A stretch of 11,061 nt of DNA, taken from a virus. A program made the translations under genes and the position numbers. Of the stretch, positions 1-11,061 are shown piece after piece. The DNA is taken from UHGV virus genome UHGV-0272930; one strand, 5' to 3'. Below the pieces are notes generated by a model. That model had not been told where the DNA came from and ran no database searches. It saw nothing but the letters and a program-made list of their open reading frames with translations. Positions within the stretch are counted from its first letter, which is position 1. Each line of letters opens with the position of its first letter.

Positions 1-2
1 TG

Positions 3-110
3 CGGGCAACGGTGTTTAATTATATCGAATGTGATTACAATCGGTGGCGGCGGCACAGTTGGTGTGGCGGCCTCAGTCCGGAACAATTTGAAAACCAGAA
101 CCTCGCTTAG
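3..110 (+). CDS. insF: IS3 transposase OrfB (InsF), C-terminal fragment; 5' end lies outside the window
   Basis: Open frame from the window edge to TAG at 108-110; the translation matches the remembered IS3 OrfB C-terminus. Confidence 0.85.
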
Positions 111-140
111 GCCTGTGTCCATATTACGTGGGTAGGATCA
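102..140. repeat. IS3 right terminal inverted repeat (IRR)
   Basis: ctcgcttaggcctgtgtccatattacgtgggtaggatca; its reverse complement aligns with 10923-10961 at 28 of 39 positions, with the conserved TGATC tip. Confidence 0.85.
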
Positions 141-2505
141 TATTGTCCGTGCCGAATACGTCAAAGAATCCCATCTTAACCTTATATTCACCATCAACGA
201 TGTTTGGTACTGAGTCGAATTCAGGTGCATAACTGGTAAACAATCGGCTGGTATTCCCGTTAACAATACTGATAACAGCACCAGCATAATCACGTTCAGT
301 TGATTGTGTCCATGAAGCAAATAAATTACCAAAACCACCAGTGAATGATACGCCTTGTACTAATCCACATTGTTTGTTTTCTACTGTAATTTTCACTTCC
401 TGTGAATACGTTCCATCATTAAATCCCTGTGCGATAATACCAATAGTTGGTTTACGTACTTTTAAACGATTCATCGCAAGAGCGAAATTGAAACTATTGC
501 TTTGCGTATAGAAAGTATCTACAAGGGTTGTACCGTTATAGATTTTAATGATGTAGTACTTGAAGTAATCAGAATACGAGCGACCATTAACGATTAAGTT
601 CTTCTGTGAATCCCATGCAATATTAAAATCAGGTGCATCGGTGATTAACGCTGATTCAGTACGATTTGCCAGTACTACGCCAGTTACGGAAGGTAAAGCA
701 AAGTTATAAGTCGGTACTATTCCGTTAAGGGTTACACGCTGCGATACCAAACCAAGATTGTTATACGCCTCTACCCCAAAGTCATAGCTTGCAGTGTCAG
801 ACAATCCAAACAGTTCATAAGTGGTTTTCTGTACGCCCGTTTGCCCCGCATATGTCCATGTACTGGTACTGTGAAGTTTGTAGTAAACATAATAGCCCCG
901 TAGGTACGGATCTTCTGAAACCGTCCAGGTCAAATCAATGATAGAACCGCTGGTAGTGTTGCCCTTGCGTACTGCCTGTAGATTCGTTGGAGCCTTCACA
1001 GTAAGTTCAGGGAAGTTAATCACACCACCCGGCGACCATACGCCCGGATCTACACCGTCATACATCTGGTCAGGGGCTTCCACGCAGGTTAGCGTTACAT
1101 AGCCTACGTTCTCTTGATCGGTGGCAATGTCCTTGTTCAGTACTTTAAATTTACCTGAGATATTCAATTCGGCATTACTGACATTGATAGCATCCCATAC
1201 CTTGAGATCCCATCCTTCGGATGTGGTAAAGCTGATAGTACGTAAAGCATACTTTGCCTTGAGTACATCAACGTTTGCCATCTTAGCGATGACATCAGGA
1301 TCATATGACCAACTGTAATCACGACTAAGTGCGATTACCTGCCCGTCTTGCCGAACGGCTTCATCAACGGTTATATCTGAAGGTATGCGTACTACATCCG
1401 TGGTGTACATTGATTCAGGGTTAGTGAATTTGCAGTCAACCACATTGAAGTAGTCAGTACCGCCACTGGTTGAAATCTGTACAGCACCAACCATATTAGA
1501 TTCATTAAATGACGCTACTGAAACTGTTTTACGGTCTGTCGTAATACAAATCTGTCCGGCGTGAACATACATAATACCGCCAAATGATTGACAGATATTT
1601 TCTATGTTTTCTTTATAGCTTGATTGGTAACTGATAGCACCATTGGCGTAGTACTCGAAAGCATCACAATAGGCTGCCGTTTCTTTGAAGATATCAAGAT
1701 TAATTAATGCGGGATCAATACCCATCCCATACGTCGTATTTGTTAAGTAATCATAGATAATTGACGGTGGATTACTACTTGCTTTAATACTGCCATCCAC
1801 TAAATCAAAAATACGTTGCCCTTTCATTTCAACGGTCAAAGCAAACTGATCATTAACGAGAATGTTATTTTCTAATGATTTCTTCGTTTTCTTGATAACC
1901 GTACTGATACTAACAATGCCTTTACCAAGAAATTTATTAGTCCATTTTGGCCCTGCATATCCAGTAGCTAACGTTTTAGTACTGGTATAATCACCACCAA
2001 AGCGTACTTCTAGTTGTAGAAATTCCTGATACTTTTCCGCAATACTGGCTTTCGGTACTATGCCATCTTGTGTAATCGGTACGGCTAAAACTGGTTCGTT
2101 ATCGATATAGATCTGTAGAATATTCTTTTCAGTACCCGCATATGCTACAGCCTGTTCTGAAAAGAGATATTGAGAATCACTATTCGGTACGTTGTACCAT
2201 GACACAATTGAACCTGTCAGTACGTATGAACCGCCTGATACCCCGTTTTTATGTGGCAACTCACCGCCATAGATAACAGGTAATCCCGTAGTTGGGGAAG
2301 TACTTCGGCTTAATGAGTCCGACACATCCCCATAACCGCTTACGCCGATTTGCCCCAACATTGATGTAGCCACCAGTGAAGCAGCTCCCGCAGCAGCCCC
2401 CCAGCCAATCGCGGCTAATGCTGTACCGCCAGTAAAGTACACGGCTGCCGCGACAATTACCGCAGTTATGATAGCTCCAAAGAAGCCCCCTAAACTCTTA
2501 CCCAT
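124..2505 (-). CDS. Lambda gpJ-like central tail fibre / tip attachment protein with an N-terminal gpI-like hydrophobic Gly/Ala-rich domain; 3'-truncated by IS3 (native sequence ends at 141, last 4-5 codons and the stop come from the IS3 IRR)
   Basis: 793-aa ORF. Residues around 250-330 (IIYDYLTNTTYGMG...AAYCDAFEY) resemble the lambda J central region (WDMLTHPRYGMG...GQYCDQ). A fibronectin-III-like segment (LTWTVSEDPYLRGYYVYYKL...) follows. The N-terminal 60 residues (MGKSLGGFFGAIITAVIVAAAVYFTGGTALAAIGWGAAAGAASL) resemble the hydrophobic C-terminal half of lambda gpI. The reading frame runs across the IS3 junction at 140/141 and stops at 126..124 inside the IRR. Confidence 0.75.
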   Translation of the reverse strand: MGKSLGGFFGAIITAVIVAAAVYFTGGTALAAIGWGAAAGAASLVATSMLGQIGVSGYGDVSDSLSRSTSPTTGLPVIYGGELPHKNGVSGGSYVLTGSIVSWYNVPNSDSQYLFSEQAVAYAGTEKNILQIYIDNEPVLAVPITQDGIVPKASIAEKYQEFLQLEVRFGGDYTSTKTLATGYAGPKWTNKFLGKGIVSISTVIKKTKKSLENNILVNDQFALTVEMKGQRIFDLVDGSIKASSNPPSIIYDYLTNTTYGMGIDPALINLDIFKETAAYCDAFEYYANGAISYQSSYKENIENICQSFGGIMYVHAGQICITTDRKTVSVASFNESNMVGAVQISTSGGTDYFNVVDCKFTNPESMYTTDVVRIPSDITVDEAVRQDGQVIALSRDYSWSYDPDVIAKMANVDVLKAKYALRTISFTTSEGWDLKVWDAINVSNAELNISGKFKVLNKDIATDQENVGYVTLTCVEAPDQMYDGVDPGVWSPGGVINFPELTVKAPTNLQAVRKGNTTSGSIIDLTWTVSEDPYLRGYYVYYKLHSTSTWTYAGQTGVQKTTYELFGLSDTASYDFGVEAYNNLGLVSQRVTLNGIVPTYNFALPSVTGVVLANRTESALITDAPDFNIAWDSQKNLIVNGRSYSDYFKYYIIKIYNGTTLVDTFYTQSNSFNFALAMNRLKVRKPTIGIIAQGFNDGTYSQEVKITVENKQCGLVQGVSFTGGFGNLFASWTQSTERDYAGAVISIVNGNTSRLFTSYAPEFDSVPNIVDGEYKVKMGFFDVFGTDNMILPT

Positions 2506-2899
2506 TGTGTTTCCTTACTCTATAAAATGTTCCATTCGTTGGTTTTGGATGAAGTTCAAAGCCATCATGGCTTTCATTCACTCCAAGTACCCGACCTGAT
2601 ACAACCACTGCCATAATTAAAGGGTTATCAGGATCTAGCCATATATCACCGTCTATAACGACCTGTACGGGGTTACAGTACTGTTCAACTATCTCCCCTG
2701 TATGATTCCATCCTTCAGCCTTTAGACCTGCTATACCTTCCTGTACGCTTGTATATTCACGATTTGCTAATTGCGTAGTACCATTAATTAAATCGATAAT
2801 ACGTAATACAATAATATTGCAATCGTTATCTCCGAATTGATACGGGTTATCAATGGCGTACTGAATGACATTCATAATTTCATTGTGTAGATTTTTCAT
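2498..2899 (-). CDS. NlpC/P60-type tail tip peptidase, lambda gpK-like but lacking the N-terminal JAB/MPN domain
   Basis: 133 aa. QFGDNDCNIIVL and ESHDGFELHP resemble the Cys and His motifs of the gpK NlpC/P60 domain. Sits immediately upstream of the J-like gene with an 8-nt overlap, and its start overlaps the upstream stop as TAATG. No HxH...S..D JAMM motif is present. Confidence 0.55.
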   Translation of the reverse strand: MKNLHNEIMNVIQYAIDNPYQFGDNDCNIIVLRIIDLINGTTQLANREYTSVQEGIAGLKAEGWNHTGEIVEQYCNPVQVVIDGDIWLDPDNPLIMAVVVSGRVLGVNESHDGFELHPKPTNGTFYRVRKHNG

Positions 2900-10399: not shown

Positions 10400-10411
10400 T
10401 TGATTTCCTTA

Positions 10412-10922
10412 TCATTTGCCGAACCAATTAGAACCCATACCAGTACGTCTACGCGTCTGTTTTTTCTCTGGTTTGGTTATTGGTTCTTCTACTTTATTTA
10501 TATTATATTTAGTACTTCCCTGTACTTTATGTTCACGTAGCTTCCTGAATGGTTGAGTACCTAATTTACTTTGTGCATATACAATCGCTATCATTCCATA
10601 GACAAGGCAATCTAAAGCCTCATTACGCTTTTGACCTTTCTTTAATCGCCATACTAATTTCCCCCCTGCTGGTTTTAATTCTTCTGCTGAAAGTTGTTCA
10701 AAGTAATCGGACGGTAAAGTACTGCTAAAGCGTAATTTAACTGGTGCGTTCTCCGCTTCTGTACTGAGCATTAGGTTTAAAAGTTTACGTATCGTATTCT
10801 TCTGGTCATGTACGTTTAGGATCTGTAGCTGGTAGCCAGCCTGTGTACTCGTCTTGAAGAGATCACCAGTCGTGCTACTTGAACCCTTGATAGGATGGTA
10901 CTTAGCCCAACGAGCGGTGAAC
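10412..10922 (-). pseudogene. Terminase large subunit, C-terminal roughly 170 codons only; 5' end replaced by IS3
   Basis: The minus-strand frame is open, with no stop, from the IS3 junction at 10922 down to TGA at 10414..10412; I translated 10772-10924 by hand. The C-terminal motif [18 protein letters not shown] resembles the acidic nuclease-domain motif near the C-terminus of large terminases. The ORF track's start at 10771 is just an internal Met. Confidence 0.55.
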
Positions 10923-10961
10923 TGATCTTACCCAGCAATAGTGGACACGCGGCTAAGTGAG
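10923..10961. repeat. IS3 left terminal inverted repeat (IRL)
   Basis: Imperfect inverse of 102-140 (28 of 39 positions). Confidence 0.85.
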
Positions 10962-10987
10962 TAAACTCTCAGTCAGAGGTGACTCAC

Positions 10988-11061
10988 ATGACAAAAACAG
11001 TATCAACCAGTAAAAAACCCCGTAAACAGCATTCGCCTGAATTTCGCAGTGAAGCCCTGAA
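10988..11061 (+). CDS. insE: IS3 transposase OrfA (InsE), N-terminal 24 codons; continues beyond the window
   Basis: ATG at 10988 preceded by GAGGTGACTCAC; translation MTKTVSTSKKPRKQHSPEFRSEAL. Confidence 0.85.
   Translation, partial: MTKTVSTSKKPRKQHSPEFRSEAL

What the first reader, a model, noticed from the sequence alone, without database searches (positions are those of the whole stretch)
1..11061. Phage structural block bracketed by two directly oriented IS3 copies that cut into both terminal genes
The window opens with the right end of IS3 and closes with the left end of IS3, both reading left to right, so the copies are direct repeats separated by 10,782 bp. The IS ends abut coding sequence on both sides: the terminase frame runs open into the IS3 left end at 10922, and the J-like frame crosses into the IS3 right end at 141. 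The block has no integrase, small terminase, lysis or replication gene, so it cannot be an autonomous phage. Recombination between the two IS3 copies would delete or circularise the whole block, and IS3-family elements are known to form circular intermediates, so the segment may behave as a composite or translocatable unit. The triplets next to the IS ends that I can see (tat at 141-143, aac at 10920-10922) are interior flanks, so target-site duplications cannot be assessed here.
Basis: partly seen in the sequence, partly recalled or inferred. Interest (0 to 1): 0.55.

Follow-up and report, generated by a model that had tools for sequence, protein, structure and literature searches.

The report
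Assembly fragment of IS3-riddled dead prophage
The window is a short-read contig holding the unique DNA between two IS3 insertions in a decaying E. coli/Shigella-type prophage, and it stops at the IS3 copies because assemblers break at repeats, so it is ordinary and not a new mobile unit.

Summary
Bases 1-140 are the last 140 nt of IS3 and 10923-11061 are the first 139 nt, both on the + strand and 10,782 bp apart. They interrupt a J-like tail-tip gene and a GpA-type large terminase gene.

The bracketed block is not a biological unit. An identical contig is a MEGAHIT k141 contig. In other assemblies the IS3 stub shrinks with the assembler's k, as expected for a break at a repeat.

In near-identical chromosomes the J-side IS3 is a complete 1,258-bp element with a 3-bp duplication (ATA). 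The missing 285-aa J C-terminus, the lysis genes and host mipA-yeaE follow it.

The terminase site carries a simple IS3 insertion (duplication GTT) in relatives, but in the opposite orientation. The window's direct arrangement is therefore a second, independent hit at the same nucleotide. Its far side was not recovered.

The prophage is also crippled by a 5.2-kb in-frame deletion that fuses the major tail protein to the tape-measure C-terminus.

I found no support for a composite or translocatable unit, because the block always sits in the same prophage context. Verdict: a known kind of thing, of low interest.

One side observation is unexplained. GTAC-centred palindromes are strongly enriched across this prophage family (AGTACT about 11-fold).

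The parts
1..140 (+). Last 140 nt of IS3 (positions 1119-1258), including the right terminal inverted repeat at about 102-140. Its length equals k-1 for a k=141 assembly.
   Evidence: 100% identical to the right ends of complete 1,258-bp IS3 copies in L001, L004, L016 and L019. Annotated as IS3 in E. coli genomes.
141..143 (.). TAT triplet, one copy of the 3-bp target-site duplication of the J-side IS3 insertion.
   Evidence: L016 and L019 read ...acaATA|IS3|ATAttcag....
124..2505 (-). J-like tail-tip (central fibre) gene cut by IS3. It has 788 native residues plus 5 IS-coded residues and a stop. About 279 C-terminal residues (Phage_Tail_Tip domain) are missing.
   Evidence: Pfam Phage-tail_3 and fn3. 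The full-length homologue is 1,067 aa with PF09327 in L015, L017 and L020. The 285-aa remainder lies beyond IS3 in L016 and L019.
2498..2899 (-). DUF6950 tail-associated protein (133 aa).
   Evidence: Pfam PF22262, E 5.5e-9.
2899..3522 (-). Tail protein (207 aa), in the position of a tail hub or tip-assembly protein.
   Evidence: phrog_2048 'tail protein', E 3.9e-24.
3522..4079 (-). Distal tail protein (185 aa).
   Evidence: phrog_1302, E 2.6e-14. Pfam DTP-pb9 B domain, a sub-threshold hit (23.1 bits against a cutoff of 27).
4097..4735 (+). Opposite-strand DUF6216 membrane protein (212 aa). It is moron-like and its function is unknown.
   Evidence: Pfam PF19723, E 5.6e-22. No PADLOC or PHROG hit.
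4743..5846 (-). 367-aa in-frame fusion ORF left by a 5,202-bp deletion. It joins about 170 N-terminal residues of the 946-aa major tail protein to the last ~197 residues of the 736-aa tape-measure protein. The junction is at ATA microhomology, window 5337-5339.
   Evidence: BLAST breakpoints against L003. Junction sequences and protein comparison. PHROG major tail protein over residues 1-153 and tape measure over residues 169-366.
5864..6256 (-). Conserved ~130-aa protein of unknown function between the head and tail modules.
   Evidence: Called as a 129/130-aa gene in all related loci. No family hit.
6258..6581 (-). Probable head-tail attachment protein (107 aa).
   Evidence: Pfam Phage_attach, a sub-threshold hit (22.4 bits against a cutoff of 26; E 2e-4).
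6587..8413 (-). Fused prohead protease and HK97-type major capsid protein (608 aa).
   Evidence: Pfam Peptidase_S78 and Phage_capsid. phrog_617, E 6e-81.
8361..9869 (-). Lambda-family portal protein (502 aa).
   Evidence: Pfam Phage_portal_2, E 1e-61.
9869..10399 (-). 176-aa head-tail joining-like protein.
   Evidence: phrog_5774, E 2.9e-9.
10412..10922 (-). C-terminal 169 codons of the GpA-type large terminase (full length 595 aa), with no start codon at the junction.
   Evidence: phrog_15, E 6.5e-19. Alignment to the intact genes in L007 and L003 shows the break after codon 426.
10920..10922 (.). AAC triplet, the target triplet of the terminase-side IS3 insertion.
   Evidence: In L038 the same triplet (GTT on the gene strand) is duplicated on both sides of a complete IS3.
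10923..11061 (+). First 139 nt of IS3. The left inverted repeat is at 10923-10961 and the orfA start at 10988.
   Evidence: 100% identical to the left ends of complete IS3 copies. In L038 orfA starts 65 nt after the IS3 left end (8285 vs 8220), which puts the start at window 10988.

Best explanation
The window is a short-read contig, most likely from MEGAHIT with final k=141. It contains the single-copy DNA lying between two IS3 insertions in a decaying siphovirus-type prophage. That prophage is integrated next to mipA-yeaE in an IS-laden Escherichia coli/Shigella-type chromosome. The 140-nt and 139-nt IS3 stubs are the k-1 overhangs left when an assembler reaches a multicopy repeat.

Each IS3 is an ordinary independent copy-out/paste-in insertion with a 3-bp duplication. 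One lies in the J-like tail-tip gene (target ATA) and one in the large terminase gene (target AAC/GTT).

The prophage continues on both sides. The J C-terminus, lysis genes and mipA lie beyond one IS3. Beyond the other lie the terminase N-terminus (if it has not been deleted since), the small terminase and the early genes.

The prophage is dead several times over: terminase split, tail-tip protein split, and a 5.2-kb deletion that removed the tail tube, chaperones and most of the tape measure.

Shown directly: the junctions, the lesions, the context in relatives, and the dependence of contig ends on the assembler. Inferred: that the source strain has two complete IS3 copies, and that the terminase N-terminal part is still adjacent.
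For: 1. The exact 793-aa J::IS3 product occurs only on three contigs, all 10-20 kb long. One of them (ENA ERZ27317730, k141_146429, 11,050 bp) is 100% identical to window 12-11061.
2. The same block in other assemblies also ends in IS3, with stub lengths that track k. The stubs are 115/118-120 nt in a k119 contig, 51 nt in SPAdes NODE contigs, 29 nt in a Logan contig and 0 nt in an NCBI TPA assembly. IS elements as contig break-points are described in PMC10592638.
3. L007 (112-kb contig) matches window 141-10922 with only a 2-nt difference. It shares the J::IS3 junction but has an intact 595-aa terminase.
4. L016 and L019 (4.8-Mb chromosomes) carry a complete 1,258-bp IS3 at the same J junction with an ATA/ATA duplication. 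Beyond it lie the J remainder (285 aa), a lysozyme, a holin-like gene, then mipA.
5. L038 carries a complete IS3 at the same terminase nucleotide with a GTT/GTT duplication and a 432-aa N-terminal fragment upstream. The predicted fusion product ...KKFDLTQQ is in the protein collection as WP_407235362.1.
6. The host flank mipA-yeaE is 100% identical to E. coli.
7. The 367-aa ORF is a deletion fusion.
8. At least 9 different IS3 insertion sites, plus other IS-family insertions (transposases of IS5-, IS630- and further IS3-family type by Pfam domains), occur in this prophage in different strains.
Against: 1. The window itself does not show what lies beyond either IS3 stub.
2. The window's terminase junction (IS3 left end next to the C-terminal fragment) differs from that of all long assemblies found, which have the right end there.
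3. The predicted reciprocal product for a simple insertion in the window's orientation (...[13 protein letters not shown], four alternative starts) is absent from the 15-billion-protein collection. The reciprocal DNA junction is absent from JGI metagenomes and IMG/VR. The terminase N-terminal part may therefore be deleted or rearranged in the source strain.
4. That the window is a MEGAHIT contig is inferred from an identical contig's name and from the stub lengths. It was not stated.
Confidence: 0.85

Rival explanations
1. One reading: two complete, directly repeated IS3 copies make the 10.8-kb head-tail block a composite transposon or translocatable unit that can move or circularise as a unit.
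For: The two IS3 ends are in direct orientation in this lineage. All IS3 copies seen in relatives are complete 1,258-bp elements. IS3-IS3 recombination does occur in this prophage: L016 has a deletion between the small terminase and the terminase with no duplication (ACT vs GTT flanks), and L013 has an inversion with swapped duplication halves.
Against: Every locus recovered (about 40) has the block in the same prophage context and gene order. Where the chromosomal flank was reached (L012, L014-L018, L020, L021), that prophage lies next to mipA. The J-side IS3 has its own duplication and the gene continues across it, which is the signature of a single-IS insertion and not of a unit that transposed. 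The block is absent from 72,556 plasmids and 50,697 phage records. It carries nothing selectable and no replication function.
Confidence: 0.05
2. The contig derives from a 12.0-kb circular molecule (block plus a single IS3), for example the excision product of recombination between the two direct copies.
For: The contig ends are the two ends of one IS3 in the right order and orientation to close a circle. The non-identical flanks (TAT vs AAC) are what an IS3 x IS3 excision circle would show.
Against: A linear chromosome segment between two direct copies gives the identical contig. No replication gene is present. L007 shows the same J junction embedded in a 112-kb chromosomal contig. Such a circle would be diluted out.
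Confidence: 0.03
3. Variant of the main explanation: the terminase-side IS3 in the source strain is not a simple insertion. It is a hybrid left by IS3-IS3 recombination (deletion or inversion), so the terminase N-terminus is no longer adjacent.
For: The predicted reciprocal fusion protein is not in the protein collection, although the opposite-orientation one is. There is precedent in L016 (a 1.35-kb deletion running from the small terminase gene into the terminase) and L013 (an inversion).
Against: Absence from a collection indexed by exact protein sequence is weak evidence, because one SNP or a different start call hides the product. The closest relative, L007, has an intact terminase, so the insertion is recent.
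Confidence: 0.3

Closest known systems
IS3 of E. coli (IS3 family): simple insertions into genes
   Same: Same element: 1,258 bp, TG...CA termini, imperfect 39-bp terminal repeats (28 of 39 positions match, counted by eye from the alignment), orfA/orfB, and 3-bp target duplications (ATA, GTT and CTG seen in relatives).
   Different: Nothing unusual about the element. The only peculiarity is that the same terminase nucleotide was hit twice, in opposite orientations, on two marker backgrounds.
IS-driven pseudogenisation and rearrangement of E. coli/Shigella genomes and their prophages (e.g. Seferbekova et al. 2021, PMC8072062, abstract seen)
   Same: Many IS insertions (IS3 and other IS3-family, IS5-like and IS630-like transposases by Pfam domains) split phage genes. 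IS-IS recombination gives deletions and inversions.
   Different: This prophage lineage is absent from 5,426 complete E. coli genomes and has no cultured relative (best portal identity under 30%). Its relatives are prophages of Scandinavium, Buttiauxella, Enterobacter and Klebsiella grimontii.
Contig break-points at multicopy IS elements in short-read and metagenome assemblies (PMC10592638)
   Same: Contigs end k-1 nt into the repeat, and the same block gives contigs of 10.8-11.06 kb in several assemblers.
   Different: None.
Composite transposons (Tn5/Tn9/Tn10 type) and IS26 translocatable units
   Same: Two copies of one IS in direct orientation flank a DNA segment.
   Different: There is no second genomic context. 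Each IS has its own duplication with the interrupted gene continuing outside. There is no cargo with selectable function. From established knowledge, IS3-family circles normally contain one IS only.

Membership tests
IS3 (IS3 family insertion sequence) | Terminal sequences TGATC...GATCA with imperfect ~39-bp inverted repeats, matching a 1,258-bp element | tested here: met
   Window 1-140 and 10923-11061 are 100% identical to the two ends of complete 1,258-bp copies (L016 12760-14017, L038 8220-9477). They are 98-99% identical to annotated E. coli IS3.
IS3 (IS3 family insertion sequence) | 3-bp target-site duplication | tested here: met
   Not visible in the window itself. At the identical J junction in L016 and L019 the duplication is ATA/ATA, and at the identical terminase nucleotide in L038 it is GTT/GTT.
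IS3 (IS3 family insertion sequence) | Complete element with orfA (HTH) and orfB (rve) at each end of the block in the source genome | not testable with these tools
   Only 140 and 139 nt are present. No long assembly of the window's exact arrangement was found.
Composite transposon / translocatable unit | The IS-cargo-IS unit occurs in more than one genomic context | tested here: not met
   All loci recovered with four exact-protein look-ups have the block in the same prophage gene order. There is no match in the plasmid or phage collections.
Composite transposon / translocatable unit | One shared duplication on the outer flanks, with interrupted genes not continuing across each IS | tested here: not met
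   The J-side IS3 has its own ATA duplication and J continues beyond it in L016 and L019. The outer flanks of the source strain itself are unseen.
Defective (cryptic) prophage | Phage morphogenesis genes in canonical order, with inactivating lesions relative to intact relatives, at a fixed chromosomal site | tested here: met
   The gene order is terminase, portal, protease-capsid, connectors, tail, tip. There are three lesions compared with intact L003, L015 and L039. Relatives lie next to mipA-yeaE.
Assembly break at a repeat | The contig ends inside a multicopy element at a depth set by the assembler's k | tested here: met
   Stubs are 140/139 nt here and in the k141 contig family, 115/118-120 nt for k119, 51 nt for SPAdes, 29 nt for Logan and 0 nt for the NCBI TPA assembly.

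The most novel reading that the evidence does not exclude
In the source strain, the head-tail block between the two direct IS3 copies is a genuinely excisable unit. IS3 x IS3 recombination or transposase action on the inner ends would release a 12-kb circle or delete the block, making it polymorphic in the population. The terminase site would be a true IS3 hot spot, hit at the same nucleotide in both orientations.
Probability: 0.05. Interest if true: 0.3.

Novelty: already known. Interest (0 to 1): 0.12.

Why it matters
This is mainly a caution. IS stubs at both ends of a short-read or metagenome contig look like a bracketed mobile unit, but they are what an assembler leaves at any multicopy IS. 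The biology underneath is stepwise destruction of a prophage by IS3 and other ISs, with IS-IS deletions and inversions, in an IS-laden E. coli/Shigella-type lineage. That is well known. Two by-products may be worth a specialist's glance: an IS3 insertion site used twice at the same nucleotide in opposite orientations, and a strong, conserved and unexplained excess of GTAC/AGTACT palindromes across this uncultured prophage family.

Tried and rejected
1. Megablast of the interior against 50,697 phage records and 72,556 plasmids gave no match. Complete E. coli genomes gave only a 76%-identical 3-kb stretch.
2. Exact-pattern scans for the reciprocal terminase junction, and for either terminase::IS3 junction, in JGI metagenomes and IMG/VR found nothing.
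3. Look-ups of predicted N-terminal terminase::IS3 fusion proteins found only the opposite-orientation product (...KKFDLTQQ). The window-orientation product (...[13 protein letters not shown]) and a 4-bp-duplication variant were absent.
The same region was reached through the 176-aa protein instead.
5. I considered whether homologous recombination between IS3 copies could convert the relatives' terminase junction (right end) into the window's (left end). I rejected this on logic, because crossovers inside IS copies never change which IS end abuts a given flank.
6. I considered a MEGAHIT chimera at the terminase junction and rejected it. The two IS3 ends differ at position 6, well within the smallest default k-mer (21, from my knowledge of MEGAHIT, not a tool result), and three separate contigs carry the junction.
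7. I tested CAGTACTG as a general IS3 target motif. Twelve independent IS3 sites with duplications in other IMG/VR contigs do not show it, so this is unproven.
8. Rfam, tRNA and PADLOC scans of the window found nothing. A repeat scan found nothing beyond short chance matches.

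
Full report
**1. Observation**

The left edge of the window ends ...CGTGGGTAGGATCA at base 140. The right edge starts TGATCTTACCCAGCAATAG at base 10923. Both stretches are 100% identical to the two ends of complete 1,258-bp IS3 copies in related chromosomes, for example L016 12760-14017. They are 98-99% identical to elements annotated as IS3 in 4,644 of 5,426 complete E. 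coli genomes. Both read left to right, and 10,782 bp separate them.

On the minus strand, a 793-aa ORF (124-2505) runs across the junction at 140/141 and stops 17 nt inside IS3. The terminase frame (10412-10922) is open up to the IS3 left end and has no start codon.

**2. What the interior is**

All large ORFs except one lie on the minus strand and form a siphovirus-type morphogenesis module:
- the C-terminal 169 codons of a GpA-type large terminase
- a 176-aa head-tail joining-like protein
- a lambda-family portal
- a fused prohead protease and HK97-type capsid protein (608 aa)
- a 107-aa attachment-like protein and a 130-aa protein of unknown function
- a 367-aa ORF (see section 5)
- a distal tail protein, a 207-aa tail protein and a DUF6950 protein
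- a J-like tip protein

One DUF6216 membrane protein is encoded on the + strand.

G+C is about 39%. There is no tRNA, Rfam family or PADLOC hit. No cultured phage is close: the best portal identity is under 30%, and there is no nucleotide match in the phage or plasmid collections.

**3. Where it comes from and why it ends where it ends**

Exact-protein look-ups placed the block in many public assemblies. The exact 793-aa J::IS3 product is on only three contigs, all 10-20 kb long. One of them, ENA ERZ27317730 contig 'k141_146429' (11,050 bp), is 100% identical to window 12-11061.

The prefix k141 is MEGAHIT's naming for its final k-mer (my knowledge). A de Bruijn contig runs k-1 = 140 nt into a repeat before the graph branches, and the window has 140 nt and 139 nt of IS3. 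In other assemblies the same block also stops in IS3 with stubs that follow the assembler:
- 115 and 118-120 nt in a k119 contig
- 51 nt in two SPAdes NODE contigs
- 29 nt in a Logan contig
- 0 nt in an NCBI third-party assembly

IS elements as contig break-points in metagenome assemblies are described in PMC10592638. The 'bracketing' is therefore a property of assembly and not evidence for a delimited element.

**4. What lies beyond the IS3 copies in relatives**

*J side.* L007 (a 112-kb contig) differs from window 141-10922 by one dinucleotide and has the same J::IS3 junction. In two 4.8-Mb chromosomes (L016/L034 and L019/L038) the same junction belongs to a complete IS3 flanked by ATA on both sides. 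Beyond it the gene continues with 285 aa carrying the Phage_Tail_Tip domain. A lysozyme, a GIY-YIG protein, a holin-like protein and then host mipA follow. The uninterrupted protein is 1,067 aa in L015, L017 and L020. The mipA-yeaE flank is 100% identical to E. coli, and NCBI names the proteins E. coli.

*Terminase side.* Intact relatives read GGTGAAC|TTCTTAACTG at the insertion point. L038 has a complete IS3 exactly there with a GTT duplication (AAC on the window strand). A 432-aa N-terminal fragment and the DUF1441 small terminase lie upstream. The predicted fusion product ...KKFDLTQQ exists as WP_407235362.1.

In L038, L016, L028, L030, L032 and L033, however, it is the IS3 right end that abuts the C-terminal fragment. 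In those strains the two IS3 copies are inverted relative to each other. The window (with L011/L027 and two sister contigs) has the left end there.

Homologous exchange between IS copies cannot change which IS end abuts a flank. The marker backgrounds also differ:
- The five of those six right-end loci that span the site (L016, L019/L038, L028, L029, L030) carry a 22-bp deletion at 5262-5283; L032 and L033 stop short of it, and L029 ends at the junction without any IS3.
- L009, which has an intact terminase, carries the same deletion.
- The window, L007 and L008 lack it.

The window therefore carries a second, independent IS3 insertion at the same nucleotide in the opposite orientation.

I could not recover its far side. 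The predicted product ...[13 protein letters not shown] is not in the protein collection, and the junction is not in JGI metagenomes or IMG/VR. A later deletion, as in L016, thus remains possible.

**5. Other lesions**

Relative to intact prophages (L003, L015, L039), the window lacks 5,202 bp. The gap runs between codon 170 of a 946-aa major tail protein (Peptidase_S74 C-terminus) and the last ~197 codons of the 736-aa tape measure, joined in frame at an ATA microhomology (window 5337-5339). The tail tube-like 154-aa gene and both chaperone ORFs are gone.

Other strains show IS3 at no fewer than nine sites in this prophage, plus transposases of IS5-like, IS630-like and further IS3-family types by Pfam domains. 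One IS3-bounded deletion has no duplication (L016, flanks ACT/GTT). One IS3-IS3 inversion has swapped duplication halves (L013).

**6. Mechanism**

*Shown:* two IS3 junctions, gene truncations, the deletion fusion, the context in relatives, and the assembler-dependent ends.

*From established knowledge of the IS3 family:* copy-out/paste-in transposition through a single-IS circle, with 3-bp duplications.

*Inferred:* the source chromosome has two complete direct IS3 copies, with the prophage continuing on both sides. Recombination between them could delete the block, as any direct repeat can.

There is no sign that the block has ever moved, because it is never seen in another context. It carries no replication or selectable function.

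**7. Comparison and novelty**

This is IS3 doing what IS3 does, in a genome type known for IS expansion and IS-mediated rearrangement (PMC8072062, abstract), viewed through a short-read assembly. It fails the tests for a composite transposon (second context, and a shared outer duplication). It meets those for a defective prophage and for a repeat-induced contig break. Novelty: already known. Interest: low.

**8. By-products**

(a) The terminase site was hit twice at the same nucleotide.

(b) GTAC-centred palindromes are strikingly enriched in the window:
- GTAC occurs 122 times in 10.8 kb (3.2-fold, the top 4-mer).
- AGTACT occurs 38 times (10.7-fold, and about 24 times the density in 672 kb of other IS3-bearing viral contigs).
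- CAGTACTG occurs 8 times against 0.24 expected.

The excess survives synonymous-codon shuffling (AGTACT 38 vs 9.8 +/- 2.7) and occurs in all three codon phases. It spans the whole prophage and persists in relatives from Scandinavium, Buttiauxella and Phytobacter. In the Phytobacter relative (portal 63% identical) none of the AGTACT positions in the portal gene is shared with the window, whereas the two closer relatives share most of them. I have no explanation for it.

Three of the IS3 sites sit in the same register on CAGTRCTG. Twelve IS3 sites elsewhere do not show the motif.

Noticed in passing
window 141-10922 (e.g. CAGTACTG at 2676, 3132, 3600, 3806, 5048, 6369, 7010, 9209); also L015, L039, L022, L023, L024: There is a strong excess of GTAC-centred palindromes. 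GTAC is 3.2-fold enriched (122 sites), AGTACT 10.7-fold (38 sites, about one per 280 bp) and CAGTACTG occurs 8 times against 0.24 expected. The excess survives synonymous-codon shuffling, occurs in all codon phases and spans the whole prophage. It is kept in relatives from three other genera; in the most diverged one (L024, Phytobacter) the AGTACT positions in the portal gene are all different. The cause is unknown; candidates are a modification, nicking or binding site, or a HIP1-like repair bias.
   Followed up: partly
window 10922/10923; L038 8220-9477; L016 742-1999: The same terminase nucleotide (GGTGAAC|TTCTTAAC) carries IS3 in opposite orientations in two lineages that differ by a 22-bp indel marker. 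This implies two independent insertions, i.e. a hot spot. The native sequence just past the site (TTCTTAAC) loosely resembles the IS3 end (ATCTTACC).
   Followed up: partly
window 6369-6376 and 8768-8775; L013 around 12489 and 16662; L016 12760: Three of about nine distinct IS3 insertion sites in this prophage lie in the same register on CAGT(A/G)CTG, with CAG/CTG as the duplication. The J site lies 2 nt from such a motif. Twelve IS3 sites with duplications in unrelated IMG/VR contigs show no such motif.
   Followed up: partly
window 4743-5846 (junction 5337-5339): A 5,202-bp deletion fuses the N-terminal ~170 residues of the major tail protein in frame to the last ~197 residues of the tape measure (367-aa ORF). 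A sub-lineage (L009, L016, L019, L028-L030) has a further 22-bp deletion at 5262-5283 that splits it into 219 + 148 aa.
   Followed up: yes
L013 11232-16662; L016 742-1999: IS3-IS3 recombination products occur in relatives. L013 has an inversion of the J 3' region with swapped duplication halves (TAT/ATA and CTG/CAG). L016 has a ~1.35-kb deletion from the small terminase gene into the terminase, leaving one IS3 without a duplication.
   Followed up: yes
window 4097-4735 (+ strand): A DUF6216 membrane protein is encoded on the opposite strand between the tape measure and the distal tail protein, like a moron. Part of the region (about 4333-4743) did not align between the window and L012, while the flanking tail genes did. 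There is no defence-system or PHROG match.
   Followed up: partly
whole prophage family (L003, L015, L017, L022-L024): This is a 39% G+C prophage lineage with no cultured relative (portal under 30% identical to any GenBank phage). It is absent from 5,426 complete E. coli genomes. It is present in draft or IS-laden E. coli/Shigella-type genomes next to mipA-yeaE, and in Scandinavium, Buttiauxella, Enterobacter and Klebsiella grimontii. Intact members have a 946-aa major tail protein with a Peptidase_S74 C-terminus.
   Followed up: partly
window 1884-1885: A TC dinucleotide in the J-like gene is unique to the window and its identical k141 contig L011. All the other relatives that cover this position and were compared (L007, L016, L019, L028, L029) have GT.
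   Followed up: no
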